From positions 1-46,042 of the forward strand of contig JAAYZF010000130.1 in NCBI GenBank assembly GCA_012514975.1: 46,042 bases of DNA, given 5' to 3'. The translations under genes and the position numbers were made by a program. The notes beneath the pieces were generated by a model. That model was given only the letters and a program-made list of their open reading frames with translations, was not told where the DNA came from and did not search any database. This stretch comes from a bacterium (GTDB lineage Bacteria > Auribacterota > UBA3054 > JAAYZF01). This document shows, piece by piece, positions 8,187-29,484 of the stretch (position 1 is its first letter; the number at the start of each line of letters is the position of its first letter).

Positions 8187-8189
8187 CCA

Positions 8190-9586: not shown

Positions 9587-9679
9587 TCAGGCGGAGGCCG
9601 ATGACAGAAGGATGCGCGATCCTACAATCACGAGATGCAGGATGGCGATCACGGCAATCTGTACCGGCGTTCCGTTCAT
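9587..9679 (-). CDS. Putative Ile/Val/Leu-rich attenuator leader peptide (30 aa)
   Basis: MNGTPVQIAVIAILHLVIVGSRILLSSASA*; 13 of 30 codons are Ile/Val/Leu; lies between a consensus promoter and a terminator. Confidence 0.7.
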   Translation of the reverse strand: MNGTPVQIAVIAILHLVIVGSRILLSSASA

Positions 9680-9703
9680 GGCAGACAATCCAATCAACAC
9701 AAA

Positions 9704-9732
9704 AGTATACGATTAAGGTGTGGTCTTGTCAA
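9704..9732 (-). promoter_or_regulatory. sigma70-type promoter driving the leader peptide/apgM-cimA transcript
   Basis: Minus strand TTGACA-N17-TATACT. Confidence 0.8.
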
Positions 9733-10677: not shown

Positions 10678-11099
10678 AAGTGGACCTGCGGGATGACGAA
10701 GGGCTCGAGGTGCAGATGGCGCCGTTGATCGACTGCGTCTTCCTGCTGCTGATCTTCTTTCTCGTGGCCACCACGCTGAAGAAGATCAACGAGGAGCTCC
10801 CGCTCGTGCTGCCCGAGTCGAAGGCGGCGATCCAGGTGCAGGAGCCCGACCAGTTCATCGTCATCGCGATCGATGAGAACCAGAACATCTATGTCGACGG
10901 CACGCCCGTGTCGATCGGGCTGCTGCAGAACGATCTGCGGGCCAGGAGCCAGGCGACGCCGGAGATGAAAGTGCGGCTTGATGTCGATCACGCCGTGCCG
11001 TTCCAGCGCGTCATGCAACTCCTCGACATCCTCCAATTCGAAGGGCTTAAGAATGTCGGCATCAACACCCATCAGGAACGCTTCGAGCCGCTGCGGTAG
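10674..11099 (+). CDS. exbD: ExbD/TolR biopolymer transport protein
   Basis: MAPLIDCVFLLLIFFLVATT with the conserved TM Asp; ATGA overlap with exbB. Confidence 0.9.
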   Translation: MKVDLRDDEGLEVQMAPLIDCVFLLLIFFLVATTLKKINEELPLVLPESKAAIQVQEPDQFIVIAIDENQNIYVDGTPVSIGLLQNDLRARSQATPEMKVRLDVDHAVPFQRVMQLLDILQFEGLKNVGINTHQERFEPLR

Positions 11100-12375: not shown

Positions 12376-13628
12376 AGCCACTCCGCCACATCCTGCTGCT
12401 TTCCGCGGCGCTGCTCGCGCCCGGCGCGCCCGCTGTGCTCGCGGCTGCCGAAGCGGCGGACGCCAGCGCCGCCGCGCCCGCGAACGATCAGCATCTGGGC
12501 AGCGACATCGTCGGCATCTACGATACCGCCGTGGCGAATCTCGAACAGATATGCGACGATTACCGCCGCATCAAGGCCATCCAGCAGGCGAAGCAGCTCG
12601 ATATCCCGTATGATGAAGCATACAGGAACATCTCGTCCGTGATGCCGGTGCTCGATCCGGTCGACGCGCCGCTCCTGCGCCGCGCCATTCGCCACCCGGA
12701 CGACATTGCGACGCACAAGCATGCGGTCGAGAAAGTCGAGACCCAGATCGAGATGATGATCGATCTTGCCGCGAAGCTGCTCGAGGAGATCGAGGTGATC
12801 CAGGTCAGGCTGCTTGACGGCGGCGAGATGGCGAAGAGGCCGGAGGCCACGCTCGAGGAGATCGTGCAGAAGCCCGAGTACGACCCCGATGAAGTCATCG
12901 AGATCGCGCAGGTGCGGGAGGGCAGCCCGGCCTTCGCCCAGCTCGAGGAGCTCGCCAAAGACGACGAGAAACAGCAGTTCAAAGACCTGACGCCCCTGAT
13001 GCACGAGCTGATGCCGGACATCAAGGACCTGACGAAGGAGACGCAGGAGGGCGAGGAACGGCCGCGCGACCTGTTCCGCAGCTCGGACAATCCGGCCGCA
13101 CTCATGCGCATCACGGACCCGGAGGCGCCGCACACGTTCGGCCGCAAGATCGGCGACGGCGGCGCGCCGGTCGAGTGGCTCTTCGTCAACTCGTGGTACA
13201 CCATCGGCCCGTTCCCGAATCCCATGCGCATCAACATCCATACCAAGTTCCCGCCCGAGACGGTGGTTGATCTTGCCGCAACCTACGTCGGCAAGGACGG
13301 CCGGCTCCTGAGATGGGAATGGGAACAGAGCGGCGTGCCAATGGTGCAGCCATCCGCGCCCGACCAGTACGGCGTCTACTACGCCTACACGGAAATCTCG
13401 TGCGACCGGCCGATGGATCTGTGGGTGGCGGTCGGCAGCGACGACAAGGCGAATGTCTGGCTCAACGGCATGCCCATCTGGGTGAGCAGCGACCGGTTGA
13501 AGGGCTGGCGCGTGAACGAGGGATTCCGCAAGGTGACCTTCCGCCGCGGCATCAACAAGGTGCTGTATCGCGTGGAGAACGGCTGGCTGAACATCGGGTT
13601 CTCGATGGCCATCCGCGTCGCGCCGTGA
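12372..13628 (+). CDS. Secreted protein with C-terminal PA14-like/galactose-binding-like beta-sandwich domain
   Basis: Signal peptide MKPLRHILLLSAALLAPGA; WYTIGPF...YYAYT...VGSDDKANVWLNG...GINKVLYRV; ATGA overlap with the previous gene. Confidence 0.65.
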   Translation: MKPLRHILLLSAALLAPGAPAVLAAAEAADASAAAPANDQHLGSDIVGIYDTAVANLEQICDDYRRIKAIQQAKQLDIPYDEAYRNISSVMPVLDPVDAPLLRRAIRHPDDIATHKHAVEKVETQIEMMIDLAAKLLEEIEVIQVRLLDGGEMAKRPEATLEEIVQKPEYDPDEVIEIAQVREGSPAFAQLEELAKDDEKQQFKDLTPLMHELMPDIKDLTKETQEGEERPRDLFRSSDNPAALMRITDPEAPHTFGRKIGDGGAPVEWLFVNSWYTIGPFPNPMRINIHTKFPPETVVDLAATYVGKDGRLLRWEWEQSGVPMVQPSAPDQYGVYYAYTEISCDRPMDLWVAVGSDDKANVWLNGMPIWVSSDRLKGWRVNEGFRKVTFRRGINKVLYRVENGWLNIGFSMAIRVAP

Positions 13629-13693
13629 CGGAGAGCGGGAGATTCGTTCGCAGCCGCAGGGGCGTGTCCCTGCAACACTGGACAACACACATC

Positions 13694-17442: not shown

Positions 17443-18630
17443 TCACGCCTCGGGCGTGTTCTTCAACTGCTCGATCAGCGCCCGCGCGTCATCGGCGTCG
17501 TGTGCAGCCACAAGAAGCTCGCCAAAACCCTCCCGGGCAACATAGACGCCGTCGTACGCCTTGTCGTAGAACGAACGGATGGCGCAGGAAATCCCCGCGG
17601 ACTCAAGGTACGTCTGCCATTCGATTGCCTGCTGTTCGGACGCGGCGAGCGCAACGCTGACAAGATTCCCGTCATCCGCGGCACCGGAGCCCGGCTGCGC
17701 GCGGGCGGTCTCCTCGACGGCAGGCGCTGCCGGCTCAGCGGCGCAGTTGTCTTGAGCGGACGGTTCTGCGGAGGCCGGGGCGCCAGCGGCAGAGGCGCTC
17801 GCGGCGCTCGTTGCCGGCTCCACGGGAGGTGGCGGCGCGGAAGATGATGACGAGGCAGGTGTGGGCGGTCCGGCGTGTTCCTCCTTGTCCTGCTGCGTGA
17901 TGCCGGCGGCGAACCAAAGGCTTGCCTCGAAAAGGAGGTAGAGCGGGACGCCCATGAGGAACATGGTGAAGATGTCGGGCGGGGAGAACACGGCCGCGAT
18001 GATCGCGATGATGACTATCATGACCCGGCGGTTGCGTGCCAGGGTGTCGCGCGGCACGATGCCGGTTTTCATGAGGAAGATGAGAACGAGAGGCGTCTGG
18101 AACACGAGGCCCGACGCGATGAGCCAGAACGAGGCGAACCCGATGTAGTTCTTCAGCGTGATCTGGTCGACGAGGAAGTCGCTTCTGAACTGCATGAAGA
18201 ACCGGAGCGACAGCGGGATCATGACGAAATAGGCGAAGAGCAGCCCGGCGACGAACAGGCCCACTGACGCGCCCCAGAGGCGGTTGACCCAGTGCTTTTC
18301 GTGGTCATAGAGGGCAGGCGAGACGAATCTCCAGATCTGGTGCGCCACGTAGGGCAGCACGACGATGAAGCCCGCGACGAGCGAGAGTTTGAGCTGGATG
18401 AGAAACGGCTCGGTGGGGCTGAGAAACGTCAGGTGCTCGACCGATGCGCGCACAGGATGGACGAGCAGGCGGAGCCAGAGCTCCTGGAAGGGTAGGGCCG
18501 CGACCGCGCCGAGCGCGATGGCAACAATCGAATGGAGCAGGCACGTCCGGAGATCGTCGAGATGCTCGACGATCGTCTTGGGCGGATCGTTCAGCCGGCG
18601 CGGCTCATCACTTGGTGTCGGATTTGCCAT
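17443..18630 (-). CDS. tatC: Twin-arginine translocase subunit TatC with a C-terminal linker and extra soluble domain
   Basis: VEHLDDLR, LSPTEPF, QIWRFVSPALY, FQTP and SPPDIF motifs, then a Pro/Ala/Ser linker and an ~70-aa domain (YLESAGISCAIRS). Start uncertain (18630 or 18645). Confidence 0.92.
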   Translation of the reverse strand: MANPTPSDEPRRLNDPPKTIVEHLDDLRTCLLHSIVAIALGAVAALPFQELWLRLLVHPVRASVEHLTFLSPTEPFLIQLKLSLVAGFIVVLPYVAHQIWRFVSPALYDHEKHWVNRLWGASVGLFVAGLLFAYFVMIPLSLRFFMQFRSDFLVDQITLKNYIGFASFWLIASGLVFQTPLVLIFLMKTGIVPRDTLARNRRVMIVIIAIIAAVFSPPDIFTMFLMGVPLYLLFEASLWFAAGITQQDKEEHAGPPTPASSSSSAPPPPVEPATSAASASAAGAPASAEPSAQDNCAAEPAAPAVEETARAQPGSGAADDGNLVSVALAASEQQAIEWQTYLESAGISCAIRSFYDKAYDGVYVAREGFGELLVAAHDADDARALIEQLKNTPEA

Positions 18631-18808
18631 CGGGCTTCTGCTCATGATCATCCGACGTCACGTCCGACTCGATCTCCTTCAGGGATTTCTTGAATTCCCT
18701 GATGGACTTGCCGACTGACCTGGCGAGGTCGGGCAGACGTTTCGAGCCGAACAGCAGCAGGATGATGATGAATATCGCGCCGATTTCCCACCAACTGAGA
18801 CTTCCCAT
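18608..18808 (-). CDS. tatA: Twin-arginine translocase TatA/E subunit
   Basis: MGSLSWWEIGAIFIIILLLFGSKRLPDLARSVGKSIREFKK. Confidence 0.93.
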   Translation of the reverse strand: MGSLSWWEIGAIFIIILLLFGSKRLPDLARSVGKSIREFKKSLKEIESDVTSDDHEQKPDGKSDTK

Positions 18809-18880
18809 GACGCACCTCGTAGTGGCAAGGCTGTTTGCGTGGTATGGGCGGGTACGGCGTTCCGTCCCGCCGGAAAAGAT

Positions 18881-18966
18881 TGGTGCGCGAGGGGAGACTT
18901 GAACTCCCATGGGTTTTGCCCACTAGCACCTCAAGCTAGCGTGTCTACCAATTCCACCACCCGCGC
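18881..18966 (-). tRNA. tRNA-Leu(GAG)
   Basis: GCGCGGGTGGTGGAATTGGTAGACACGCTAGCTTGAGGTGCTAG...GGGAGTTCAAGTCTCCCCTCGCGCACCA; long variable arm, GAG anticodon, encoded CCA. Confidence 0.97.
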
Positions 18967-19001: not shown

Positions 19002-19030
19002 ATTATAGCCTATCGCGCGCGGCTTGTCAA
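19002..19030 (-). promoter_or_regulatory. Consensus sigma70 promoter for tRNA-Leu-tatA-tatC
   Basis: Minus strand TTGACA-N17-TATAAT. Confidence 0.88.
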
Positions 19031-19079: not shown

Positions 19080-21572
19080 TCACCGCATGCCCCGCGTCCA
19101 GTTCCGCCGCAACGCCGGCAGCAGGGCAAGAAGAAGCGCGACCCACACGGGTTCCGGCACAAGGATGACGTCGTTGCCCACCGGTTGCGTGCCTGTAGCG
19201 GCGCGATTGACGGGCACGCACTGGCTCATCCCGTCAGCGTGGATCATCACGTGGTCGCACCCCCCGGGCACGCGCACGGAGAAGAAGCCTGAACGGCTGA
19301 GGGCGCCCAGCACAAGGCTGTCCGTTCCCGCGGCGCGGGCCGCGCGGGCCGCGACAGGCGCCTCGATGACGCCGTCCGCCGGCGCCGTGCCGCTGACGGC
19401 CGAGACAACCGAGCCGCAGAGGTACACCTCGCCGCCGTCGATGAACACGTCGGCCATGCCGCCATCCGCCGTGTTGGTCAGCACCGTTGTCGTCGAACGA
19501 TACCCATCGGCCTCGGCGACGAGCACATGGGTCGGTGCGCCTGGCGCATCGGTCTCGGGCGGCGGGAGGGCGGTGAAGGCGAAGATGCCGTTGGCATCGG
19601 CGATCGCCTGCCGGGCGCCGAACCAGACGCGCGCGCCTGCGACGGGCACGTGCGCGCCGCGCGAGCGAACGGTGCCGGAGAGGGCCACCGTGGCATTGGT
19701 CTGGCGGAGCGTATGGACGTCGGTCAGGACAGTGTGATTGATCTGTGCGGGTGTCCTGCGGACGCAACGGGACGTCCAGCCGTCTTTCATGAACACGAGG
19801 TAGTGGCTGCCTTCTTCAGCCTCATCGACCGGCCATGCCTTGGGTATGCGGCCGAACGAGTATCCGCCCGCCTCGTTGCATTCCGCCGCGATGCGCGCGC
19901 CGCGAATCAGCAGGATGACGGAGGCGCCGGGGACGCCGCTTGACATCTTCGCCGCGTCAACCAGCCAGCCGCCGTAGGCGTACGTGGTCACCGGAAAGAG
20001 GAACGGGTAATGCACGCCCGACGTGGTGCTCGCTGATGTCGAGAAGTAGTAGTTCGACAGCTCGTGCTCCTGGAGGTTCACGGTGCGCTGGAGCTGCACG
20101 GAGCAGAGCGCGCCCGTGGGCCGGTCGAGGTGCAGCCAGCCGTCGCCATCCGAGCGTGTCGCCAGCGTGTCGTCGGGCGCGCCAAAGGCGTTGGTGTTGC
20201 CTGGATAGCCGGCGGTGGCATACGCGCCCCAGACGGGCAGAGGCGCCTGGAAGCCTTCGGCCATGGCGGCGCCGCGGATGCCGGGAACAGTGATCGCCAC
20301 CGTGGCCGGCGCGCTGCGGTGCCGGCCGTTGTTGGCAATGACGGAGAAGCGATAGACTCCGGGCACGGCAAGCGGCCCGAGCGCGAGCTCGCTGTTCGTG
20401 GCGGCTGCGGGCGCGGGAATGACCGACAGCGGGTTTTCAGGGCTTTCATGCCATTCGACAGCAAGCGGCCCGGGACCGGCGTCAGGATCTGACGGCAACG
20501 CGCGAAGGCTGACATCGTGCATGGGCATGCGATGTGCATCAAACGACTGGCCGGGCGCCCATGCGCTCCATGCGCCGTTGGTCCGCCAGGCGGCCAGCAC
20601 GGCCGGCGGCTGGTTCGAGACAATCAACCCGGCGACAGCCTGCGCGCTGAGCGGCGCGTTGAACGTGCCTTCAGCCCCTGTCCACGTGTCGGAGACAATG
20701 CAGACGATGTAGCTGTCATGCGTCTCGGCGAAGACGAACGTTGCCGTCGGCGACGCGCTTGCCGGGGTAAACGGCCCGTCGGGCGGGTTGAACTGCCAGG
20801 AGAAGACGAACTGCTCCTGCGGATTTGGGTCGGACGCAGTTGCCCAGACCGTCACCGTGCCGCCGGGCGTGACGAGGTACGGGCCGTTCGCGTTCACACG
20901 CGGCGGCGAGTTCCACACCTGGAAACGGCGCCATGTGTCGATGCTGGTGCGCCCATGCTCATCCTTTGAGACGAGGGACAAGTCGATGTCGGCAGGTTCC
21001 TTGAAGGTCGTGTGTGCGGAAGGGCCCGTACCGAGGGCCTGGGACTCCGGAGGCGCCGAGTCGTTGTAGTTCGTCACCCAGTACAGCGTGCCGCCCCACC
21101 CGGCGCTGAGCCGCGCGTCCAGGTGGTACGGCAGGCCGGCGAATGCGCGCGGCGCGCCGCTTATGACGGGATGGAGCGTGGCGACACCCTCGACAACGGC
21201 GGCCACGACGAACGATGTCTCTGACACTCCGCCGCCGGCAACGATCACCATGCCTGTGTACGTGCCAAGCGCCGCCAGCACATCGCGCCGGATGGTCACG
21301 GGCACGGTGTTCGGCGCCGTGCCGAGCACGATGCCGTTTGTCGCTTCGAGCACGAACCATGGCGCGGCCGCGCCGAACGCCGCCGACGCGTTCCACGCAA
21401 TGCCGGTCGGGGACGGCGTGGTGACCGTGCACGCGCTGGTGAGATTGCTGACGCCGGCGTCGATGAGCGGCGGGAGGAGACTGAGCTTGCCCGCCGCGGC
21501 CGTGCGGGAGACGGCCCAGACTGCCATCGGCAGCAGGGCGGCACGCAGGATGTGTATGCGGATTCGTTTCAT
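19080..21572 (-). CDS. PEP-CTERM surface protein with Ig-like/PKD and carboxypeptidase-regulatory-like beta-sandwich domains
   Basis: Signal peptide MKRIRIHILRAALLPMAVW; C-terminal ILVPEP-hydrophobic-RR tail; NGPY/SDP PKD-like segments; paralogous to 25017-28022. Confidence 0.8.
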   Translation of the reverse strand: MKRIRIHILRAALLPMAVWAVSRTAAAGKLSLLPPLIDAGVSNLTSACTVTTPSPTGIAWNASAAFGAAAPWFVLEATNGIVLGTAPNTVPVTIRRDVLAALGTYTGMVIVAGGGVSETSFVVAAVVEGVATLHPVISGAPRAFAGLPYHLDARLSAGWGGTLYWVTNYNDSAPPESQALGTGPSAHTTFKEPADIDLSLVSKDEHGRTSIDTWRRFQVWNSPPRVNANGPYLVTPGGTVTVWATASDPNPQEQFVFSWQFNPPDGPFTPASASPTATFVFAETHDSYIVCIVSDTWTGAEGTFNAPLSAQAVAGLIVSNQPPAVLAAWRTNGAWSAWAPGQSFDAHRMPMHDVSLRALPSDPDAGPGPLAVEWHESPENPLSVIPAPAAATNSELALGPLAVPGVYRFSVIANNGRHRSAPATVAITVPGIRGAAMAEGFQAPLPVWGAYATAGYPGNTNAFGAPDDTLATRSDGDGWLHLDRPTGALCSVQLQRTVNLQEHELSNYYFSTSASTTSGVHYPFLFPVTTYAYGGWLVDAAKMSSGVPGASVILLIRGARIAAECNEAGGYSFGRIPKAWPVDEAEEGSHYLVFMKDGWTSRCVRRTPAQINHTVLTDVHTLRQTNATVALSGTVRSRGAHVPVAGARVWFGARQAIADANGIFAFTALPPPETDAPGAPTHVLVAEADGYRSTTTVLTNTADGGMADVFIDGGEVYLCGSVVSAVSGTAPADGVIEAPVAARAARAAGTDSLVLGALSRSGFFSVRVPGGCDHVMIHADGMSQCVPVNRAATGTQPVGNDVILVPEPVWVALLLALLPALRRNWTRGMR

Positions 21573-21573
21573 G

Positions 21574-24500
21574 TCAACGCCATTCCCCAAGGAGAACGAA
21601 GCCGGCCCAGAACGCCGGATGGGTGAACCGCCTGTCGGACCTGAGGGCGCGTTTCGCCTGGTTGAGCGCCGCAAGCGTGTTGGTCGCGCCAAGTCCGGCG
21701 TAATACTCGCGGACGAGAGTGGTGGTGCTGGCATCCTCGAGGTTCCACAGCGCGGCCGTCACGCGCGTCGTGCCGGCATGGAAGAAGGCGCGCGCAAGTG
21801 CCGAGATGCCGTGCGCGTACTCGCGCTGGTCAACATAGCCGGTGAAGCAGGCTGAGAGGGTGACCATGTCGGCATTCATGCGCAGGCCCATGATCTCGCG
21901 CGCGGCGAGGAAGCCGTCATCGCTGTCGTCGCCGTAGAGCGAGAGCACGAGGCAGGGCTCCGGGATGCCGCGCACGTCGCCGGGCAGCAGCGCGTGCGTG
22001 GCGAAATGGACATAGCGGTTGCTGAGCAGCGCGCCGGTGGCGCTCAACGACTTCAGTGCGCTTTCGCGCGCGTCAGCGCCGACGAAGACGCTGACCGGCG
22101 TTCTGCGCGTCCGCAGCAGGCCGGCGATGCCCTCCACTTCCCTCCGCGACGACGGCAGCGGCACGATCAGCGTCAGTTCCTTGTCAGGGATGAACATGGC
22201 CGCGGGATCCGCGCCGCGCATGCGCAGGCCCGAGCGCATCGCGAGAGGCGCGAGCGCGCCTTCGCCGCCGGCGCCTGTGCCGGCGTACTGGCGCGGCGTC
22301 ACCACGGGGTCGCCGAACAGGACCGCGCCCGTGCCCGAGTGCGCAGCAGTGATGCGCGCCTCATCGTTTTCCCGTATCTGGCGCAGCACACGGGCCGATG
22401 GCACGTACGCAACGGGCACTGAGTCGCCCAGGTAGTCGAGCGCGGCGAACGTGGCGCCTGTGCGCGAGCGGAGGAGCGCGTCAAAGGGGATGGTGGCCAG
22501 GCAATCGTGCGGGATGACGTAGACAGCCGTGCACTTCGAGAGATCGCGGCCGGCAAGAAGCGGCGCCACGACATCGGCATACAATCCGGCGGCGCACTGG
22601 ACGTACGCGTTCATTGGCGCCGTGGTTGCGCCAGGTGTCAGCACGTCGCGGAACGCGGCCACGCGCCGGCGCAGCGCAGCCCGGCCAGGTGCGAGGGCAT
22701 GGAAGCGTGCTTCGTCCTTCGTGATCGCGCAGGCGTAGAGGCCGTTCTGCCCAACCCAATAGCAGAGCGCAAGCTCGCCGGGCGCCAGCACTGTGCTCTG
22801 AAACGCGGCGAGGTCGAGCCGGGCAGGCTGGCAGAGCGATGCATAGCGCGGATAGCGCACCGCGAACTCGGCACGGAGTGCCCGCAACTGCGCGCGGAGC
22901 GGCGCAAGGGCGAGTTCCGCCTGCGTGGCATCGAGTGCGGCGCCCGGCGCATCACCGCGCAGGGCGGTCGCGTCCTTCCTCGCCTCGAGCAGGTGTGTCT
23001 CGCCGTCGAGGCTGGCGAGTCTCCCGGCATCAGCGCGGGAGAGGCCTGCGCGCTGGGCAGCATCGAGGTCCACCAGCTCATCGAGCATCTCCCGCGCGCG
23101 CGCAGTTTCCATCGCGGCAAAGGCGAGCGCGGCGTCCGCGGACGGCGCGGCGCGGCGCGGCCGCCGCGCGGCAACGGCGGCCAGCGTGTCCGCACACAAC
23201 GTCTCCATGTCCGCGTTCATCCGCTCGCGCAACGCCGCCGGGCCGGCCGCGGCGAATGCGCCGTCAAGCACGCGCAACGCGCGGACGTACAGGGCGACCG
23301 CATGGCCGGTGTTGCCCTTGCGCGCCGCGCATGCAGCCACGCGCGCAAGTGCGTCCGCCGTGTCCGGGTGGAGTGGCCCGAGCGCCGCTCCGCGGATGTG
23401 GAGCGCTTCTTTGTACGCCTGTTCCGCAAGGTGTTTGCTTCCCTGCAGCAGGAAGGCATCACCCAGGCACTGAATGGTCGCCGCGACATCGGGATGGCGC
23501 GGGCCAAGGACACGTTCCTGCAAGGCGCGCGCCCGGAGGGCAAGGGCGCTGCCGGCCGCGCCGTTGCTCAGCGCGCACTGCACAGCCGCCATGCGGCAGA
23601 GCACGCGCGCCACGGCGGGGTGGTTCGTACCGAGCGACGCCTCGAGGATGGCCAGTGCCGCTTCATGCTCCCGCGCCGCGTCCGCGTAACGCCCCTGATC
23701 CTCGTACAGCCGGGCGAGGCTGCCGCGCGATTCGCCGACGGCGCGATGGGCGGGCCCGAACACGTGTGTCCGGATGGCCAGCGCCCGCAGGTACAATGTT
23801 TCCGCCTCGGCGTACTTCCCCTGCCGGCGGCAGAATGCGGCGAAATCGTTGAGCGTCGAGGCAACGGCGGGGTGATTGCTGCCGTGCGCCTGCTCGCACG
23901 CCTGAACTGCGACGGCATACTGGTCTTCAGCGTCGGCATAGCGGCCCAGGGCCGCGTATACGCCGGCGAGATTGCGCGACACGGTGGCCACGCGCGGATG
24001 CCGCGGCCCGAGCGTGTTCGTGTAGACATCAAGCGCCTCAAGGTACAAGCGGAGCGCCTCATCATACCTGCCGCCGTCGTGGCACAGGACCGCCATGTCG
24101 TTGATCGTCGCCGCGGTGTCCAGGTCGCGGCCGCCGAGGTGCTCGCGGCGCAGCGACAGCGCGCGGCCGTACTCCGTGCGCGCTGGCGCATAGTGCCCCG
24201 TGTCGGCGAGAAGGAAGGCCAGATTGTTCCGCAGGACGGCTTCGTCAAGGACGTTCGACCCGGCGGCGGCCGCGGAGATCCCTTCCAGAAACAGCCCTTC
24301 CGCAATGGCGTGGTTGCCCAGGATGCGTTCGATCTCGGCAAGATTGTTGATGGACTGGGCGACAAGCGCGCTCTCCGGCGGCAGTGCTGCGCGACGGATA
24401 TCGAGCGCGGCCCGATGGTGTCTCCGCGCGCGAGGGTATGCGCCCAAGTGGCGGCAGACTTCGCCAAGGTTGTTGAGGCACGTCGCCACGCGCAAGTCGT

Positions 24501-24978
24501 CCGCCAAACCCTCCGCGCGGTAGATCGCGGTGGCACGCTCGAGCAACGGCTCGGCCTCGGCATAGCGCCCCTGGTTGACGCGCAGCGAGGCAAGGTTGTT
24601 CAGCGCCTGCGCAACGCCCGGGTCCTCCGCGCCAGTCGCTTGCTCGCGCACACGGAGCACGCGCAGCAGCAGCGGCTCGGCCTCGGCATAGCGGTGCGTG
24701 AGCACGTACAGCGAACCGAGGATGTTGAGGCAGACCGCAGTGTTCGTGCCGTCGCCGCCGTAGAGCGCGGTGGCCGCTTCGACTGCGCGCTGTGCAGGCT
24801 CGATCGCCTCCTGGTAGCGCCCGGCGGCGAAGCAGGCGTTGACTTCGGTGTAGAGCTCGTCCAGCGCATCGGTCTCCGCCCCCGCCGCGCACAACGCGAG
24901 CATGCAGAGCGGCAGCGCGCGCTTCAGCCCTGCATGGAAGCCGCGCCGGCAGAGAAAAAGTACCCGGATGCGCGTCAT
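21574..24978 (-). CDS. TPR-CHAT domain protease (caspase/separase clan CD) with N-terminal signal peptide
   Basis: More than 10 TPR repeats (LNNLA..Y...GRYAEAE), then the CHAT motifs VIPHDCLATIPFDAL, LFGDP, VHFATHA (His), VTLSACFT (Cys), AFFHAG and THPAFWAGFVLLGE. Confidence 0.92.
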   Translation of the reverse strand: MTRIRVLFLCRRGFHAGLKRALPLCMLALCAAGAETDALDELYTEVNACFAAGRYQEAIEPAQRAVEAATALYGGDGTNTAVCLNILGSLYVLTHRYAEAEPLLLRVLRVREQATGAEDPGVAQALNNLASLRVNQGRYAEAEPLLERATAIYRAEGLADDLRVATCLNNLGEVCRHLGAYPRARRHHRAALDIRRAALPPESALVAQSINNLAEIERILGNHAIAEGLFLEGISAAAAGSNVLDEAVLRNNLAFLLADTGHYAPARTEYGRALSLRREHLGGRDLDTAATINDMAVLCHDGGRYDEALRLYLEALDVYTNTLGPRHPRVATVSRNLAGVYAALGRYADAEDQYAVAVQACEQAHGSNHPAVASTLNDFAAFCRRQGKYAEAETLYLRALAIRTHVFGPAHRAVGESRGSLARLYEDQGRYADAAREHEAALAILEASLGTNHPAVARVLCRMAAVQCALSNGAAGSALALRARALQERVLGPRHPDVAATIQCLGDAFLLQGSKHLAEQAYKEALHIRGAALGPLHPDTADALARVAACAARKGNTGHAVALYVRALRVLDGAFAAAGPAALRERMNADMETLCADTLAAVAARRPRRAAPSADAALAFAAMETARAREMLDELVDLDAAQRAGLSRADAGRLASLDGETHLLEARKDATALRGDAPGAALDATQAELALAPLRAQLRALRAEFAVRYPRYASLCQPARLDLAAFQSTVLAPGELALCYWVGQNGLYACAITKDEARFHALAPGRAALRRRVAAFRDVLTPGATTAPMNAYVQCAAGLYADVVAPLLAGRDLSKCTAVYVIPHDCLATIPFDALLRSRTGATFAALDYLGDSVPVAYVPSARVLRQIRENDEARITAAHSGTGAVLFGDPVVTPRQYAGTGAGGEGALAPLAMRSGLRMRGADPAAMFIPDKELTLIVPLPSSRREVEGIAGLLRTRRTPVSVFVGADARESALKSLSATGALLSNRYVHFATHALLPGDVRGIPEPCLVLSLYGDDSDDGFLAAREIMGLRMNADMVTLSACFTGYVDQREYAHGISALARAFFHAGTTRVTAALWNLEDASTTTLVREYYAGLGATNTLAALNQAKRALRSDRRFTHPAFWAGFVLLGEWR

Positions 24979-25016
24979 GATACCGTGAACGGTCGCGCGT
25001 GTTGCGCTGGACAGGT

Positions 25017-28000
25017 TCAGCGCCGGCAGCGCCGCAGACGCCTTAAGCCCGGCAGGCCAAGCGCCAGGCCGCCAAGCCAGCCGGCCGGCTCGGGAATCGG
25101 CAGGATGATGTCACGCTTCGTGTGGTCATTCACATCGACCGTCACCGTGACCGGCTCGAAATCAGGCGAGGAAACAACGTAGGAGCGTGTGCCTTTGGCA
25201 ACCATCACATCGTAGTAGCCTGCGCCCGAGGCGGCGGTACCCGGCACCGGCATCCGGCCGGCCGCCCACGCGCCGCGCACAGACGCCTGTACGCTGTCGA
25301 CCATTACCGATGCATTCGTGACCGGGATGCCGTTGATGTCGTAGATCTGCCCGTAGACACTCACTTCGCCGCCGTGGATCACGAGATCAAGATTCGTGGT
25401 GCCGGACAACAGGTTGATATCGCCCACCATCGTACGCGTGAACCCGTCCCTGGCCAGCACGACAAGATACTCCCCGTCCGGCACGGCCAGCGGGCCGAAC
25501 GTGCCGTCGCCTGCCGTCACCGCCGACCACCCATTGCCAAAGTCCACCGTCACGTCTGCCACGGGCAGCCCGGACAACTGGCCGCGGACAGTGCCATGCA
25601 CCTCCGCGTTCCCCGCCGACGGCTGGACAGCGATCACTTCGCTGTTCATGTTCATGTTCAGCCGCATGGCACGCACGACGCTGCGCCAGCCGGCCTTCTG
25701 CACACGGACAAGATACTCGTCTCCATCAAGCGGCCAGCTCTCCGGCACCATGCCGTAGCCGAACGCGCCGATGGCATCCGCCTGGACGGGCATGCCGTTG
25801 CCGATAAGCAGCTCCGTCTGCGCATAGGGCAGGCCGACGTACGCGGCAGGCGTGCCCGTAACGATCTGGCCGGCATAGATGTAGCAGGTTGGCAGCAGGT
25901 AGACGTTCTTCGAGTATCGCCCGCCGGGGTCAATATCGATTGTCACATTCTGCCGGTCAAAACGCCGTTTCAACTCGGCAACCTGCGGCCCGGCGCCGGC
26001 ATCAACCAGGAATGCTCCACTGCGGTCCGTGCGGCCCATGTGCGCGTTGCCGGTAAATGTGTTGGTCACCGTCACCTCGACGCCCCACAGGGGCACTCTG
26101 CCTGCAAAGCCCTCGCAGATGACTTGGCCATGCCATCCTGGCACGCGCACGACAAGCGTTGCAAGCGCACTCAGGTACTCCCCGTCGAAAACGGCCAGAT
26201 GGAACCTGTAAGTGCCAGGCTTGTTCAGCGGGTCTGTGGTGACAACCGGATCGTGGAGCCTGCCGGCGGGTATCGCGGGTTTCTGCGGATTGGCAACATC
26301 CTCCCGCCAGTCGAAATAGAGCACCGGATTCGGCTTCATGTCGGGATCGCTCGATGCGCTGCCGTCGAGCGTCACTGTGCAGCCCAGCCCCGGGAGATTT
26401 GTGCTGGCCGCTCCGGAGCCTGCAAGCACCGCGCGCGCCGCGGGTGGTGCGTTGGCCGGATCTATCAGTACGGTCGCCGTGTCCGAGCCGGCCGCGCCAT
26501 GCTGGTCGCGCACCTCGCACGCGGCAACGTAGCTGCCGGCAGCGGCATAGGTGTGTGCGATGACGAAGAGGTTCGACCACGGCGTATCCCAGACCGCGTC
26601 TCCGTCGAAGTTCCAGCGGCATTCATGCGTGTCATGGATGCCCGGGTCGGATACAAGCGCCGCCAGGAACGTGTTGGTGCCTGCGCGGCCGCTGTACGGC
26701 CCGCCAAGCTCGACCGTGGGCGCCACGTTGTACACCGTGAGCAGCGTGCTGTCGGAGGCGGTGTGCGGCGGGCTGTTGCTGTCGCGGACAGTCAGCGTAA
26801 CGTCGCAGACGCCTGCGTCGTATGTATCTGTATAGGTAAAGGCCGCGTTGCTGCTGTCGTAGGGCGTGGCGAAGCCGGCGCCCACTTCCCACCGGTACTG
26901 CAGGCCCTGCCCGAAGGAGCCGACCGCGGTAAACGCCGCAGGCGTTCCCTGGTCGACCACATACGGGCCATTTGCCTCCGCGCAGGCCAGGTTGCCCGCG
27001 GTCGCCTCGACCGTCGCCGTGATGACGATCTTTCCGCCTGTAGACGGCGTGATTGTCACAAAGCCCTCGTACGTGCCGGGAACGAGGGAAGAGCGGTTGG
27101 CAAGGAGGAGCACGCCCACGTTGTCCATGGCGACAGTGCCGCCCGGCGGCCACACGGAGAGCCACGATCCGCCCTGGCTGACGGCGGTGGTGAAGCCGTA
27201 TGAGCCGGCGCCCGCGTTGCCGCAATAGGCAAACCGCGTCGAGTGGTTCGTCGAGAAATCAAGATGCGTCGGCCAGACCGTCGGGACGGGAAGGGGGTCG
27301 GCGCCACTGTAGGCATCCAGGGCAACTTCCTCGGGCGTCAGCACCCGGTCCCAGATCTTCACCTCGTCTACTTGTCCTTGGAGATAGCCCCAGCCCCACG
27401 AATTGAAACCGCCGATTGTGACCTGTTCGTCGTTCGTGATGATCGTTGCCGTCGGCCAGTTGGTCTCCGCGCAGGCAAGCCCGTTGGTGTAGACAATTAA
27501 CGATAGAGGCGTCATGCAAACGGCGATATGGGTCCATGCGGTACGCCCTATGCGTGGTGCGTCTATCGAGTACTCAGAACTGCCGCTGCCGTTCGCTACC
27601 GCCACATAGATGCCGTTATCCGGAATCAGGTGAACGTACCATCCGGAAAAGCGGTTCAACCACTTGCCGAGCACCCGGTTCATGCCACTCGGAGCGTCGG
27701 AAGTCGGTGTCTTGAGCCAGAGGCTCACCGTTGCATTTGAGCTGCTGAACGCTTCATGGTGCGGCACTGATATGTAGTCGTCCAGCCCGTCGAAGCTGAA
27801 GCATCCGCCTTTTACGCCCGCCGGGCTCCACGTGGCGCCGAAGTTCGTGCCGGCATGCCCGTGGCCGGTCGCATCATGCACGGTTGACGACGGGGTGTCA
27901 AAAGGCCAATGTGCAATGAGCCCCTGCGACAGGTCCCCCTCCGCGCTCGCCGCGGCAAGAAGCCACACGCCAAGGCCTGTGACCGCACATGCCGTACCCC

Positions 28001-28022
28001 GCCCGCATCTGAGTATCCCCAT
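25017..28022 (-). CDS. PEP-CTERM surface protein with LamG-like, BACON/PKD and carboxypeptidase-regulatory-like domains
   Basis: GLIAHWPFD...FDGLDDYI...WTHIAV...GQVDEVKIWDRVLT (LamG-like), WNFDGDAVWD/HTYAAAGSY (PKD), TLDGSASSDPD and a C-terminal LPIPEP-hydrophobic-RRLRR tail. Confidence 0.85.
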   Translation of the reverse strand: MGILRCGRGTACAVTGLGVWLLAAASAEGDLSQGLIAHWPFDTPSSTVHDATGHGHAGTNFGATWSPAGVKGGCFSFDGLDDYISVPHHEAFSSSNATVSLWLKTPTSDAPSGMNRVLGKWLNRFSGWYVHLIPDNGIYVAVANGSGSSEYSIDAPRIGRTAWTHIAVCMTPLSLIVYTNGLACAETNWPTATIITNDEQVTIGGFNSWGWGYLQGQVDEVKIWDRVLTPEEVALDAYSGADPLPVPTVWPTHLDFSTNHSTRFAYCGNAGAGSYGFTTAVSQGGSWLSVWPPGGTVAMDNVGVLLLANRSSLVPGTYEGFVTITPSTGGKIVITATVEATAGNLACAEANGPYVVDQGTPAAFTAVGSFGQGLQYRWEVGAGFATPYDSSNAAFTYTDTYDAGVCDVTLTVRDSNSPPHTASDSTLLTVYNVAPTVELGGPYSGRAGTNTFLAALVSDPGIHDTHECRWNFDGDAVWDTPWSNLFVIAHTYAAAGSYVAACEVRDQHGAAGSDTATVLIDPANAPPAARAVLAGSGAASTNLPGLGCTVTLDGSASSDPDMKPNPVLYFDWREDVANPQKPAIPAGRLHDPVVTTDPLNKPGTYRFHLAVFDGEYLSALATLVVRVPGWHGQVICEGFAGRVPLWGVEVTVTNTFTGNAHMGRTDRSGAFLVDAGAGPQVAELKRRFDRQNVTIDIDPGGRYSKNVYLLPTCYIYAGQIVTGTPAAYVGLPYAQTELLIGNGMPVQADAIGAFGYGMVPESWPLDGDEYLVRVQKAGWRSVVRAMRLNMNMNSEVIAVQPSAGNAEVHGTVRGQLSGLPVADVTVDFGNGWSAVTAGDGTFGPLAVPDGEYLVVLARDGFTRTMVGDINLLSGTTNLDLVIHGGEVSVYGQIYDINGIPVTNASVMVDSVQASVRGAWAAGRMPVPGTAASGAGYYDVMVAKGTRSYVVSSPDFEPVTVTVDVNDHTKRDIILPIPEPAGWLGGLALGLPGLRRLRRCRR

Positions 28023-28053
28023 GGCAACCTCGTGTGTTGCGTACAAAACGGAA

Positions 28054-28081
28054 CGGACGGCACGCGCTAATCAACGGTGCC
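28054..28081 (-). promoter_or_regulatory. Candidate ECF-sigma-dependent promoter
   Basis: Minus strand GGCACC-N16-CGTCCG upstream of the LamG PEP-CTERM gene; same core as 28681-28708. Confidence 0.45.
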
Positions 28082-28133
28082 GGCCGGCCTCCCTCGCGCA
28101 AACGTCATCGCTCACATATGCTGATCCAACTCG

Positions 28134-28640
28134 TCAGTTAACTGCGTCACCGGGTGACGCATTCGTTGCGCCTGCCGGTTCGTTCGTTTCCGTGCAAGGG
28201 GCATGCACACCGCGGAATACAAGCGGCGCAGTCTCGTCGCCCCTGTTGCTGCCCGGCCGCGCGTCCATGCCATGCCAGCATGCGAAATACAGCGCGGCCA
28301 TGCAAAGGCATGCGGCTGCTGCCACGGCCGCAATGCCCCATGGCCGCCTGATCGAGTGTATCACGCCCTGCGTTGCCAGAACCACCTGCTGGAACAGGGG
28401 AACCCGGGGAATCCCCAGCGAATCCGCCGGCGCAGCCTCAAGCGCCCGCACCAGCTCCGCCACGTCAGGACGGGCGCTGCACAGGGCCGCAAGGCGCTCT
28501 TCCTCGTCAGGCGTGCTGACGCCCTCGACATGCCGGCTGACGAGCAGATAATCGACTCCCTCGATGTGCGAGGCCGTTGCCCGTTCCCTGGCTGATGCAA
28601 AGAGCCTGTCAAGCCTGCTCTGTACCGTTTTGTCGTCCAT
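28134..28640 (-). CDS. Putative transmembrane anti-sigma factor
   Basis: Directly downstream of the ECF sigma. N-terminal degenerate anti-sigma-like helices (LLVSRHVEGVSTPDEEERL), one TM (WGIAAVAAAACLCMAALYF) and a short tail with NRG and VFRG. Confidence 0.65.
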   Translation of the reverse strand: MDDKTVQSRLDRLFASARERATASHIEGVDYLLVSRHVEGVSTPDEEERLAALCSARPDVAELVRALEAAPADSLGIPRVPLFQQVVLATQGVIHSIRRPWGIAAVAAAACLCMAALYFACWHGMDARPGSNRGDETAPLVFRGVHAPCTETNEPAGATNASPGDAVN

Positions 28641-28680
28641 GATCAACCTTCCTTGGCTGCTATATCCTCTCTCATAAGTA

Positions 28681-28708
28681 TATACGCACGCCAAGGGGAT
28701 TTGGTGCA
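28681..28708 (-). promoter_or_regulatory. Candidate ECF-sigma-dependent promoter
   Basis: Minus strand TGCACC-N16-CGTATA in the sigma/anti-sigma spacer. Confidence 0.45.
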
Positions 28709-28721
28709 CGAAACCGGCAGG

Positions 28722-29336
28722 TCAGTCTGTCAGACACCGCCGCAACTTCGCATGAACAGCCCTTAATTCACGGTTTATCTGGAGGCGGCTGCGCCGCAGA
28801 ATCGCGCCGATTTCGCCCTGGGTGAGCCGGTCATAGTGATATAGCTTCACGAGCAGCTTCTCATGGGAATCAAGACGGTCCAGCGCCGCCGCAAGTGCCC
28901 GCTCGTCCTCCGCAAGGCACACTTGCTCCGCCACCGACACCGTGAAGCCCTCGTCGGCGGCGATGCCGTGCGTCAGGGTGTCAGCAGGGCTGCCGAGAAG
29001 TGCGGGCCGGGCTGCGCGCCGACGCATCCGGTCGATGAGCATGTGGCGGAAGACCACGGAAAGAAAGGTCGTGAGACACACGCTGCCATCATACCGGCTG
29101 AGCACGCCGGCATCGCCGGGCGCGGCGCCCATGAGCCTGACGACGAAATCCGAGAACACGTCGTCCAGTTCCTCAGGGCAGTTGTGCTGCTGTGCAAGAA
29201 TGGCGCACATGGGGCGGACGCGGCGGAGCAGCGCCGTCCATGCCCGGTTGTCGCGGCGCACGCACGCCTTCGAGAGACGCAAGTCCTCGGGATGGCGAAC
29301 GGGGTGCGTCGCATGTTCACCGCTGCTCACACTCAT
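28722..29336 (-). CDS. ECF-type RNA polymerase sigma-70 factor
   Basis: Region 2 (AWTALL...DDVFSDFVVRL...YDGSVCLTTFL..VFRHMLIDRMRR) and region 4 HTH (LYHYDRLTQGEIGAIL...AVHAKLR). Confidence 0.85.
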   Translation of the reverse strand: MSVSSGEHATHPVRHPEDLRLSKACVRRDNRAWTALLRRVRPMCAILAQQHNCPEELDDVFSDFVVRLMGAAPGDAGVLSRYDGSVCLTTFLSVVFRHMLIDRMRRRAARPALLGSPADTLTHGIAADEGFTVSVAEQVCLAEDERALAAALDRLDSHEKLLVKLYHYDRLTQGEIGAILRRSRLQINRELRAVHAKLRRCLTD

Positions 29337-29455: not shown

Positions 29456-29484
29456 ATGATAGCACTTTCGGCCGTGCACGTCAA
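29456..29484 (-). promoter_or_regulatory. sigma70-type promoter for the ECF/CHAT locus
   Basis: Minus strand TTGACG-N17-TATCAT. Confidence 0.6.

What the first reader, a model, noticed from the sequence alone, without database searches (positions are those of the whole stretch)
19080..29336. Candidate protease-gated surface signalling system: ECF sigma, 'RG'-tail anti-sigma, secreted TPR-CHAT protease and two PEP-CTERM paralogs
Seen: five co-oriented genes with short gaps (1 nt between CHAT and the downstream PEP-CTERM gene). In order they encode an ECF sigma, a single-TM anti-sigma-like protein whose short outer tail carries NRG and VFRG, a LamG/PKD PEP-CTERM protein, a signal-peptide TPR-CHAT with an intact His (HFATHA)/Cys (LSAC) dyad, and a second PEP-CTERM protein. 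Established: CHAT is a clan CD cysteine protease related to separase, which cuts after Arg. In type III-E CRISPR, the cytoplasmic TPR-CHAT Csx29 cleaves Csx30, an inhibitor of an ECF sigma. Inference: this is an extracytoplasmic, CRISPR-independent version of the same logic. The surface proteins would sense a ligand or contact, activate the TPR-CHAT, and it would clip the anti-sigma tail at R-G (a site-1 cut) to release the sigma.
Basis: partly seen in the sequence, partly recalled or inferred. Interest (0 to 1): 0.88.

Follow-up and report, generated by a model that had tools for sequence, protein, structure and literature searches.

The report
Sigma factor switch with caspase-like protease
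A bacterial gene cluster pairs a stress-type sigma factor and its membrane inhibitor with an exported caspase-like protease that probably clips the inhibitor's outer tail at a conserved Arg-Gly site, a split version of a design so far described in only one bacterium.

Summary
The five co-directional genes are real: ECF sigma (28722-29336), a single-pass anti-sigma (28134-28640), a LamG/PKD surface protein, an exported TPR-CHAT with an intact His/Cys dyad, and a paralogous surface protein.

- **Conserved motif.** The anti-sigma belongs to an unnamed family. Its outer juxtamembrane segment carries hydrophobic-x-hydrophobic-Arg-Gly, here LVFRG. The motif occurs in 17 of 23 top-ranked members that have a membrane helix, against 1.2 expected from shuffles.
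- **Fusions.** In 8 of 10 long family members tested, a caspase (Peptidase_C14) domain follows the helix.
- **Association.** In the window's phylum, 7 of 7 strong matches with the motif are fused or adjacent to a caspase or CHAT protease. Neither of the 2 without the motif is.

The closest known system is Myxococcus DdvA/DdvS, an anti-sigma fused to a periplasmic TPR-CHAT. Self-cleavage as the first proteolytic step has been proposed there but not shown (PMC11506125).

Cleavage, the signal and the role of the two surface proteins remain inferred. Their tails miss the PEP-CTERM model. I rate this a new variant of a known kind.

The parts
29456..29484 (-). sigma-70-like promoter (TTGACG-17-TATCAT, TG before the -10) about 120 nt upstream of the sigma gene
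   Evidence: Consensus scan. This is a pattern match only, not evidence of function.
28722..29336 (-). ECF-type sigma factor, 204 aa
   Evidence: TIGR02937 70.5 bits against a cut-off of 42.9. Sigma70_r4 at its cut-off. Orthologues of 31-36% identity sit beside family anti-sigmas in G012, G007, G004, G002, G006 and on the genome's own contig C7.
28134..28640 (-). single-pass anti-sigma factor, 168 aa: cytoplasmic N-domain, membrane helix, 47-residue outer tail
   Evidence: Start ATG with aggaagg upstream. One hydrophobic helix at residues 103-121. Profile of 7 relatives finds 509 proteins at E<=1e-3; 4 of the 10 further hits scanned reach the zf-HC2 cut-off, 2 of them with sub-threshold RseA_N matches. 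It follows a sigma gene in 8 of 9 strong phylum matches; the ninth is cut by a contig end.
28278..28334 (-). transmembrane helix of the anti-sigma (residues 103-121)
   Evidence: Kyte-Doolittle 19-residue window, score 2.28. No dedicated topology predictor was available.
28209..28223 (-). L140-V-F-R143-G144, the family-conserved juxtamembrane motif and proposed scissile site R143/G144
   Evidence: Present in 17 of 23 helix-bearing proteins among profile ranks 1-25, against 1.2 in shuffles. R143 and G144 align in one column in 15 short forms, which were chosen because they carry the motif. NRG at 133-135 is not conserved.
28137..28208 (-). distal tail after the motif, with Thr-Asn pairs (TETN...ATN)
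   Evidence: TN...TN recurs after RG in both short and fused relatives. Its role is unknown. A handle for the TPR domain is my inference.
25017..28046 (-). pep1: exported LamG/PKD/CarboxypepD_reg surface protein with a PEP-CTERM-like tail (likely start ATG at 28022)
   Evidence: Pfam. 51% orthologue in synteny in G004:C114. The tail misses TIGR02595.
21574..24978 (-). exported TPR-CHAT protease, 1134 aa (signal-like residues 1-34, TPRs about 40-600, CHAT 796-1132)
   Evidence: Pfam CHAT 155 bits, TPR_12 276 bits. AF2 model of residues 640-1134 has pLDDT 90.1. Foldseek: Csx29 E 3.5e-12, DdvA 2.3e-9, separase, gingipain R.
21994..21996 (-). catalytic His (residue 995, second His of HFATHA)
   Evidence: Invariant in 74 aligned CHAT domains.
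21847..21849 (-). catalytic Cys (residue 1044, LSAC)
   Evidence: Invariant in 6 close homologues and present in at least 90% of 74.
19080..21572 (-). pep2: paralog of pep1 with a PEP-CTERM-like tail, starting 1 nt after the CHAT stop
   Evidence: 46% orthologue in the same position in G004:C114.
19002..19030 (-). perfect sigma-70 consensus promoter (TTGACA-17-TATAAT) before tatA-tatC, marking the likely end of the cluster
   Evidence: TatA and TatC by Pfam.

Best explanation
**What it is.** The cluster is an ECF sigma/anti-sigma switch whose first proteolytic step is carried out by a clan-CD (caspase-fold) protease outside the cytoplasm.

**Proposed mechanism.**
1. The anti-sigma holds the sigma factor with its cytoplasmic N-domain, crosses the membrane once and exposes a 47-residue tail.
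2. About 20 residues beyond the helix, the tail carries the family-conserved motif LVFRG.
3. In relatives, the same anti-sigma continues after this motif into a caspase (Peptidase_C14) domain. Here and in one other lineage the tail is short, and a separately exported TPR-CHAT is encoded beside it.
4. The TPR-CHAT most likely binds the tail and, on an unknown signal, cuts after Arg143.
5. The stub of about 22 residues becomes a substrate for an RseP-type site-2 protease, which the genome encodes elsewhere.
6. The sigma factor is released.

**Shown:** gene order, domains, motif conservation, the fusion and adjacency pattern, the CHAT fold and dyad.

**Inferred:** export, binding, cleavage and its exact site, the signal, and whether the two PEP-CTERM-like paralogs are sensors, substrates or simply the regulated output.
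For: 1. **Motif.** [ILVMFYWT]-R-G lies within 50 residues after the helix in 17 of 23 helix-bearing proteins among profile ranks 1-25, against a shuffle mean of 1.2. It falls to 4 of 24, 4 of 48 and 4 of 43 in lower rank bands, where shuffle means are 1.06-1.93.
2. **Fusions.** 8 of 10 long family members have Peptidase_C14 directly after the helix. So do the G002 and G003 forms. The His-Gly and Cys motifs are visible in the G002 and G006 proteins. Of two further long members, P0046 passes the cut-off and P0064 is below it.
3. **Association in the phylum.** Searching 79 genomes with the profile gave 9 strong places. All 7 with the motif are linked to a clan-CD protease: the window, G012 and G007 have an adjacent TPR-CHAT; G002, G006 and G003 are fused; G009 has caspase-like ORFs in broken frames. 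Neither of the 2 without the motif is: G004:C21 is followed by an LTD protein, and the genome's own C7 by a BamA-like protein.
4. **Export.** The N-termini of the window CHAT and of the G012, G007, G004 and G002 homologues all look like signal peptides.
5. **Active enzyme.** His is invariant and Cys is present in at least 90% of 74 sequences. The model is confident and matches Csx29, DdvA and separase.
6. **Site-2 protease.** An RseP-like Peptidase_M50 is encoded at C365, E 2.8e-60.
7. **Precedent.** DdvA is an anti-sigma with a periplasmic TPR-CHAT. When that domain is removed, DdvA becomes RseP-sensitive (PMC11506125, sections read). The abstract of PMC6426788 states that orthocaspases cut after basic residues.
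8. **Cassette.** pep1-CHAT-pep2 is conserved in G004:C114 at 51%, 52% (CHAT part) and 46% identity.
Against: - No experiment or model shows binding or cleavage.
- The split form (short tail plus neighbouring CHAT) was seen in only two independent lineages: the window's, and the G012/G007 genus. Both metagenome scans added no new lineage.
- In the window, pep1 lies between the anti-sigma and the CHAT gene.
- Secreted TPR-CHAT paralogs of the same clade sit beside a histidine kinase and a sigma-54 regulator instead (own C298, G002, G006, G004:C246). The tree does not unite the sigma-linked CHATs into one group.
- Among the 80 closest CHAT loci in species genomes, only 2 (L057, L101) have an ECF sigma close by.
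- CHAT specificity is not always Arg; craspases cut after Leu or Met (PMC11506125, section 8).
- The motif could be a docking or structural element rather than a scissile bond.
- The kin counted in the 7-versus-2 table are not independent.
- Alignment A4 was assembled from sequences chosen for the motif.
- Export and topology were judged by eye and by hydropathy only.
Confidence: 0.55

Rival explanations
1. **Output only.** The sigma/anti-sigma pair is an ordinary envelope-stress switch. The CHAT protease and the two surface proteins are simply the genes it turns on. The Arg-Gly motif is recognised by another site-1 protease or has a structural role.
For: - Genes downstream of family anti-sigmas vary: an LTD protein in G004:C21 and a BamA-like protein in the genome's own C7. 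That is typical of regulated outputs.
- pep1 separates the anti-sigma from the CHAT gene.
- CHAT paralogs sit beside two-component systems.
Against: - The motif tracks the protease: 7 of 7 with it, 0 of 2 without.
- In 8 of 10 long relatives the protease is part of the anti-sigma polypeptide itself. That is hard to explain if the protease is only an output.
Confidence: 0.2
2. **Cap without cutting.** The TPR-CHAT binds the tail non-covalently and shields it from the site-2 protease. Signalling works by release of the cap, and the CHAT dyad serves another substrate or none. The motif is a docking site.
For: - In DdvA, the bulky TPR-CHAT domain blocks RseP, and dyad mutants behaved like the wild type under the conditions tested (PMC11506125, passages from section 9 and the discussion).
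- A 47-residue unfolded tail alone may be too small to block a site-2 protease; this is my inference.
Against: - The His/Cys dyad is strictly kept in the window and its relatives and in the fused caspase domains.
- Arg at the conserved position fits the preference for basic P1 residues reported for orthocaspases (PMC6426788, abstract) and for separase (PMC11506125, section 8).
Confidence: 0.12
3. **Surface-protein maturase.** The main substrates of the CHAT protease are the two flanking PEP-CTERM-like paralogs, which it matures or sheds. Its link to the anti-sigma is indirect.
For: - The pep1-CHAT-pep2 cassette is conserved in G004:C114.
- A PEP-CTERM gene also lies upstream of the genome's own CHAT paralog on C276.
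- In a Bacteroidales locus, the sigma/anti-sigma/CHAT trio is followed by a PKD protein with a T9SS sorting domain.
- pep2 holds one LLIRG.
Against: - The G012 locus has sigma, anti-sigma and CHAT but no such surface proteins.
- pep1 has no match to the motif.
- This reading does not explain the fused caspase forms.
- It could hold alongside the main explanation.
Confidence: 0.1

Closest known systems
DdvA/DdvS of Myxococcus xanthus (PMC11506125; PDB 8rot, 8rw5)
   Same: An ECF sigma is held by a single-pass anti-sigma that is coupled to an extracytoplasmic TPR-CHAT with a His/Cys dyad. CHAT cleavage of the juxtamembrane linker was proposed as the site-1 step before RseP. The window's CHAT model matches the DdvA chains at E 2.3e-9 and 4.7e-9.
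   Different: - DdvA is one polypeptide with a CHCC zinc anti-sigma domain. Here the anti-sigma (no zinc motif found, no Pfam hit) and the TPR-CHAT are separate genes.
- The DdvA regulon is a CBASS/CRISPR defence island. Here the neighbours are two surface proteins, and the flanking genes scanned are housekeeping or glycan-degrading.
- No cleavage site is known for DdvA. Here a conserved Arg-Gly is a candidate.
- The authors report DdvA-like proteins only in Myxococcota and one Comamonas. Their table S7 could not be seen.
Type III-E CRISPR craspase: Cas7-11, Csx29 (TPR-CHAT), Csx30, RpoE (PMC10028731, search listing and abstract start only)
   Same: A TPR-CHAT protease is genetically linked to an ECF-type sigma factor. 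Csx29 is the best structural match, E 3.5e-12.
   Different: - Csx29 is cytoplasmic and RNA-activated, and according to PMC11506125 it cuts after Leu or Met.
- Here the protease carries a signal-like peptide, no cas genes were seen among the ORFs scanned, and the candidate site is Arg-Gly in an outer tail.
RseA/DegS/RseP regulated intramembrane proteolysis of E. coli sigma-E (recalled textbook knowledge)
   Same: A single-pass anti-sigma receives a site-1 cut in its outer part and then an M50 site-2 cut. An RseP-like gene is present in this genome.
   Different: The site-1 protease there is a serine protease activated by outer-membrane protein C-termini. Here it would be a clan-CD cysteine protease with TPR repeats.
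Bacterial orthocaspases / Peptidase_C14 proteins with FG-GAP repeats (PMC6426788 abstract; PMC3501461 search listing only)
   Same: The fused relatives carry a C14 domain with His-Gly and Cys motifs, often followed by FG-GAP repeats. Orthocaspases are reported to cut after basic residues.
   Different: No paper in four full-text searches links a C14 domain to an anti-sigma N-domain. NCBIfam gives only a sub-threshold 'caspase, EACC1-associated type' match.

Membership tests
ECF (group 4) sigma-70 factors | Match to the ECF sigma profile, with regions 2 and 4 in a protein of about 200 aa | tested here: met
   TIGR02937 70.5 bits against a cut-off of 42.9, covering residues 32-202. Sigma70_r4 24.1 bits, at its cut-off.
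Class I single-pass anti-sigma factors | Encoded next to the sigma gene, with one membrane helix and an N-terminal cytoplasmic domain | tested here: met
   It follows a sigma gene in 8 of 9 strong phylum matches; the ninth is cut by a contig end. One hydrophobic helix at residues 103-121.
Class I single-pass anti-sigma factors | Recognisable anti-sigma domain (zf-HC2, RskA or RseA_N) or zinc motif | tested here: inconclusive
   No Pfam or NCBIfam hit for the window protein. Of 10 further hits of its profile that were scanned, 4 reach the zf-HC2 cut-off (P0008, P0013, P0022, P0026), 4 match it below the cut-off and 2 match Peptidase_C14 instead; RseA_N matches on three of them are below cut-off. 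Atlas structure hits to zf-HC2 clusters have TM below 0.5.
Class I single-pass anti-sigma factors | Binds and inhibits its sigma factor | not testable with these tools
CHAT (clan CD, separase/craspase-like) proteases | CHAT domain profile match | tested here: met
   PF12770 155 bits against a cut-off of 24, residues 796-1132.
CHAT (clan CD, separase/craspase-like) proteases | Catalytic His and Cys present | tested here: met
   H995 is invariant and C1044 is present in at least 90% of 74 sequences.
CHAT (clan CD, separase/craspase-like) proteases | Caspase-hemoglobinase fold | tested here: met
   AF2 pLDDT 90.1. Foldseek matches to Csx29, DdvA, separase, SAVED-CHAT and gingipain R.
CHAT (clan CD, separase/craspase-like) proteases | Proteolytic activity and P1 specificity | not testable with these tools
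   Needs an enzyme assay.
DdvA-type anti-sigma (fused zinc anti-sigma domain, helix, TPR-CHAT) | Anti-sigma domain and TPR-CHAT in one polypeptide | tested here: not met
   They are separate genes, 28134-28640 and 21574-24978, with pep1 between them.
DdvA-type anti-sigma (fused zinc anti-sigma domain, helix, TPR-CHAT) | CHCC zinc-binding anti-sigma domain | tested here: not met
   No zf-HC2 match. No His/Cys cluster is visible in residues 1-100 of the sequence printed.
DdvA-type anti-sigma (fused zinc anti-sigma domain, helix, TPR-CHAT) | TPR-CHAT located outside the cytoplasm | tested here: inconclusive
   Signal-like N-terminus in the window protein and four homologues, judged by eye and by hydropathy. 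No signal-peptide predictor was available.
Type III-E craspase module | Association with Cas7-11 and a CRISPR array, with a cytoplasmic protease | tested here: not met
   The ORFs flanking the cluster that were scanned are TatA/TatC, alginate lyase, rhamnosidase, ribosomal protein L25, DnaB and others. The protease has a signal-like N-terminus. The window was not scanned with cas profiles.
PEP-CTERM / exosortase-sorted proteins | C-terminal match to TIGR02595 | tested here: not met
   Neither tail is among the 32 genome matches at E<=0.1, and neither matches when its last 40 residues are scanned alone at E<=10. The G004 orthologue of pep1 scores 17.2 against a cut-off of 16.
PEP-CTERM / exosortase-sorted proteins | Exosortase encoded in the genome | tested here: met
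   PF09721 118.8 bits at C420.

The most novel reading that the evidence does not exclude
Caspase-type site-1 proteolysis may be a general, so far undescribed way to switch on ECF sigma factors. An unnamed anti-sigma family (509 profile hits at E<=1e-3; the motif concentrated in the top-ranked ones) would carry a conserved outer hydrophobic-x-hydrophobic-Arg|Gly site that is cut by a cognate clan-CD protease. That protease is either fused to the anti-sigma (Peptidase_C14 with FG-GAP repeats) or secreted separately (TPR-CHAT, as in this window). On this reading, the split form is the natural trans version of the self-cleavage proposed but never shown for DdvA. It would supply both a defined substrate peptide and a candidate scissile bond.
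Probability: 0.45. Interest if true: 0.8.

Novelty: new variant of a known kind. Interest (0 to 1): 0.7.

Why it matters
Regulated proteolysis of anti-sigma factors is a central route of signalling across the bacterial membrane. The known site-1 enzymes are serine proteases or non-enzymatic self-cleaving domains.

The only described link between an ECF anti-sigma and an extracytoplasmic CHAT protease is DdvA. Its authors call a CHAT-based first cut 'unprecedented', and they could not test it because neither the signal nor the site is known (PMC11506125, discussion).

This window and its relatives add three things:
- **A family.** It includes caspase-domain fusions found in several genera of this candidate phylum and in metagenome proteins.
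- **A candidate scissile bond.** The conserved Arg-Gly sits at the right distance from the membrane.
- **A two-piece version.** Protease and substrate are separate proteins, so a simple in vitro cleavage assay with defined mutants becomes possible.

It would also give a clear physiological role to some of the many bacterial caspase homologues whose function is unknown.

Tried and rejected
- **Word-index homologue search** with the anti-sigma found only a 98% identical copy of itself. The exhaustive profile search was needed instead.
- **Complex prediction**, CHAT residues 640-1134 with tail residues 122-168: no verdict. Both runs scored under the mark and the controls were not folded. I count this neither for nor against binding. 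The TPR region had to be left out because of the size limit.
- **PDB sequence searches.** The whole protein matched only TPR proteins such as kinesin light chain. The CHAT part alone matched nothing at E<=1. Fold search was informative instead.
- **Metagenome scans.** The short-form anti-sigma alignment gave no confirmed locus. A 4-sequence sigma alignment gave 80 loci, but only L128-L132 belong to the family, all from the G012/G007-like lineage, on short contigs. No new independent context came of it.
- **Species-genome scan** with the CHAT alignment: 80 loci, mostly alphaproteobacterial. An ECF sigma lies close to the CHAT gene only in L057 and L101. The association is therefore not a general property of this CHAT subfamily.
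- **Shared ECF-type promoter.** Ten sigma upstream regions gave only composition-driven word pairs.
- **CHAT tree**. The order-level clade is supported (98/97), but relations inside it are unresolved. I could not tell whether the sigma-linked CHATs were recruited once or twice.
- **Tat export of the CHAT protein**, considered because of 'CRRGF' and the neighbouring tatA/tatC. Rejected as unsupported: the homologues lack a twin arginine, and tatA has its own consensus promoter.
- **ESM Atlas look-up** of the anti-sigma: unnamed clusters only, and structure hits below TM 0.5.
- **Literature.** Four full-text searches found no paper linking an anti-sigma to a Peptidase_C14 domain or to a separately secreted CHAT. 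The main text of the ECF reclassification paper (PMC7826278) does not contain 'caspase', 'CHAT' or 'TPR'. Supplementary tables of that paper and table S7 of PMC11506125 were closed and may bear on this claim.

Full report
**Observation.** The window (contig C85 of a 484-contig genome that is 76% complete) carries five genes on the minus strand between 29336 and 19080.
- **Sigma, 28722-29336.** An ECF-type sigma: TIGR02937 70.5 bits against a cut-off of 42.9.
- **Anti-sigma, 28134-28640.** The second ORF most likely starts at the ATG at 28640, behind aggaagg, giving 168 residues. It has one hydrophobic helix at residues 103-121 and a 47-residue tail that holds NRG and VFRG. It has no Pfam or NCBIfam hit.
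- **pep1, 25017-28046.** Laminin_G_3, PKD and CarboxypepD_reg domains.
- **TPR-CHAT, 21574-24978.** Nine TPR_12 stretches and a CHAT domain at 155 bits, with HFATHA and LSAC present.
- **pep2, 19080-21572.** It starts 1 nt after the CHAT stop. It is a paralog of pep1: 29% identity over 552 residues, E 1e-33.

A perfect sigma-70 consensus promoter lies at 19030-19002, in front of tatA/tatC. A sigma-70-like site lies at 29484-29456, upstream of the sigma gene. Together they frame the cluster (these are pattern matches only).

- The two 'PEP-CTERM' tails look right by eye but do not reach TIGR02595. The genome does have an exosortase and 32 other PEP-CTERM matches.
- Export of the CHAT protein was judged from its N-terminus only.

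**Conservation of the locus.** Sigma orthologues were found in 6 of 79 genomes of the phylum, G000 included, all in the same order.
- G004:C114 keeps pep1-CHAT-pep2 in order, at 51%, 52% (CHAT part) and 46% identity. That contig starts inside pep1, so its upstream genes are unknown.
- G012 has sigma, a 161-residue anti-sigma and a TPR-CHAT with a signal-like N-terminus, but no PEP-CTERM genes.
- G007:C974 has the same three genes, cut by the contig end.
- Other CHAT paralogs of the same clade follow a histidine kinase and a sigma-54 response regulator (own C298, G002:C6, G006:C403, G004:C246).
- The tree supports an order-level CHAT clade (98/97) and pairs the window with G004:C114 (97/95). 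It does not resolve whether the sigma-linked CHATs are one group.

**The anti-sigma family.** A profile of seven anti-sigmas (A2) was scored against 1.84 billion representative proteins. It found 509 at E<=1e-3 and 25 at E<=1e-10.
- Of 10 further hits scanned, 4 reach the zf-HC2 cut-off, 4 match it below the cut-off and 2 match Peptidase_C14; RseA_N matches on three of them are below cut-off. This places the family among class I anti-sigmas.
- In the top ranks a motif stands out: hydrophobic-x-hydrophobic-Arg-Gly, 8-40 residues after the helix.
- Counted as [ILVMFYWT]RG within 50 residues after the helix, it occurs in 17 of 23 helix-bearing proteins among ranks 1-25, against 1.2 in shuffles of the same segments. 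It occurs in only 4 of 24, 4 of 48 and 4 of 43 in lower bands, where shuffle means are 1.06-1.93.
- In 15 short forms, which I chose because they carry the motif, R143 and G144 of the window protein fall in one column, followed by Thr-Asn pairs.

**Link to clan-CD proteases.**
- The long relatives in G002 and G006 share the N-domain: 34% identity over 82 aligned residues for G002. After the helix and a PAFRG or LELRG they continue into a Peptidase_C14 domain and FG-GAP repeats.
- Of 10 long family members scanned, 8 have Peptidase_C14 right after the helix. Of two more, one passes the cut-off and one is below it. The G003 form has it too.
- In the phylum-wide profile search (79 genomes) there are 9 strong places.
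  - The 7 with the motif are all fused or adjacent to a caspase or CHAT protease. G009 has caspase-like ORFs in broken frames, detected by my local profile but not by Pfam.
  - The 2 without the motif are followed by an LTD protein and a BamA-like protein.
  - These kin are not independent. They represent roughly four or five genera.
- Outside the phylum, a Bacteroidales locus (L057) has ECF sigma, a zf-HC2 anti-sigma, a TPR-CHAT and a PKD protein with a T9SS sorting domain. An Acidobacteriota locus (L101) has a CHAT gene between sigma/anti-sigma pairs. They are 2 of the 80 closest CHAT loci.

**The protease.** His995 is invariant and Cys1044 is present in at least 90% of 74 aligned CHAT domains. 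The AF2 model of residues 640-1134 is confident, at pLDDT 90.1. It matches Csx29 (E 3.5e-12), DdvA (2.3e-9 and 4.7e-9), separase, SAVED-CHAT and the Arg-specific gingipain R. The genome also encodes an RseP-like M50 protease.

**Mechanism.** The best-supported reading is regulated intramembrane proteolysis in which a clan-CD protease makes the first, extracytoplasmic cut after Arg143. This leaves a stub of about 22 residues for the site-2 protease.
- In the split form, I propose that the TPR-CHAT also binds the distal Thr-Asn-rich tail. It would then form a non-covalent equivalent of the bulky periplasmic domain that protects DdvA from RseP (PMC11506125, discussion).
- Binding, cleavage, the signal and the role of pep1 and pep2 are all inferred.
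- Arg at P1 fits orthocaspases (PMC6426788, abstract) and separase. It does not fit craspases, which cut after Leu or Met (PMC11506125, section 8).

**Comparison and novelty.** The nearest known system is DdvA/DdvS. [quoted passage not shown]
- The window fails the defining features of DdvA membership: a single polypeptide and a CHCC zinc domain. It appears to work like DdvA all the same.
- Four literature searches and the main text of the ECF reclassification paper gave no description of anti-sigma/caspase fusions or of a split form. Supplements were closed.
- I therefore rate this a new variant of a known kind.

**Limits.**
- No predictor for signal peptides or topology was available.
- The complex job gave no verdict.
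- The split form rests on two lineages.

Noticed in passing
window 22213-22227 (CHAT residues 918-922, LRMRG): The CHAT protein carries a hydrophobic-x-hydrophobic-Arg-Gly of its own, in a low-confidence loop (pLDDT under 50) between its two caspase-like halves. An Arg-Gly occurs in this loop in 56 of 74 aligned homologues, against 27.4 in shuffles, often as W/F/S-R-G-x-x-x-D. The closest in-phylum homologues lack it. It could be a self-processing site or a structural motif.
   Followed up: partly
G000:C298:7933-13677; L027 5863-11539; L028 2-5522; L024 616-6384: A second recurring arrangement: histidine kinase, sigma-54-dependent response regulator, then a TPR-CHAT with a signal-like N-terminus, at four loci in three genera. 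Exported TPR-CHAT proteases may therefore be partners of more than one kind of signalling module.
   Followed up: no
window 17443-18651 and 18608-18910: tatC (402 aa) has its TatC domain only in residues 29-236, followed by a C-terminal extension of about 165 residues (a Pro/Ala/Ser-rich linker plus a small folded-looking end) of unknown role. tatA lies just upstream, behind a perfect sigma-70 consensus promoter.
   Followed up: no
G000:C7:4399-8697 (L039, L225): The genome's second member of the same sigma/anti-sigma family has a short tail without Arg-Gly. It is followed by a BamA-like protein with five POTRA repeats and an Omp85 domain.
   Followed up: partly
L057 6315-13668 (Bacteroidales record): An analogous but unrelated-looking locus in another phylum: ECF sigma, a 291-aa zf-HC2 anti-sigma without the motif, a TPR-CHAT with an N-terminal hydrophobic segment, then a PKD/Fib_succ_major protein with a T9SS sorting domain.
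   Followed up: partly
window 7986-9716 (+) and 10557-13688 (-): Two large ORFs (576 and 1043 aa) have no Pfam match at E<=0.001. They overlap other long ORFs in this GC-rich sequence, so it is uncertain whether they are genes.
   Followed up: no
G000:C276:629-5323: The genome's own CHAT paralog on C276 lies directly downstream of a gene whose product ends in a clear PEP-CTERM-like tail. This is another pairing of a CHAT gene with a gene for a sorted surface protein.
   Followed up: no
L224 512-2305 (G009:C91): The G009 member of the family has its anti-sigma part (with IFRG) and its caspase-like part in different reading frames. Either the gene is broken or the assembly has errors.
   Followed up: no
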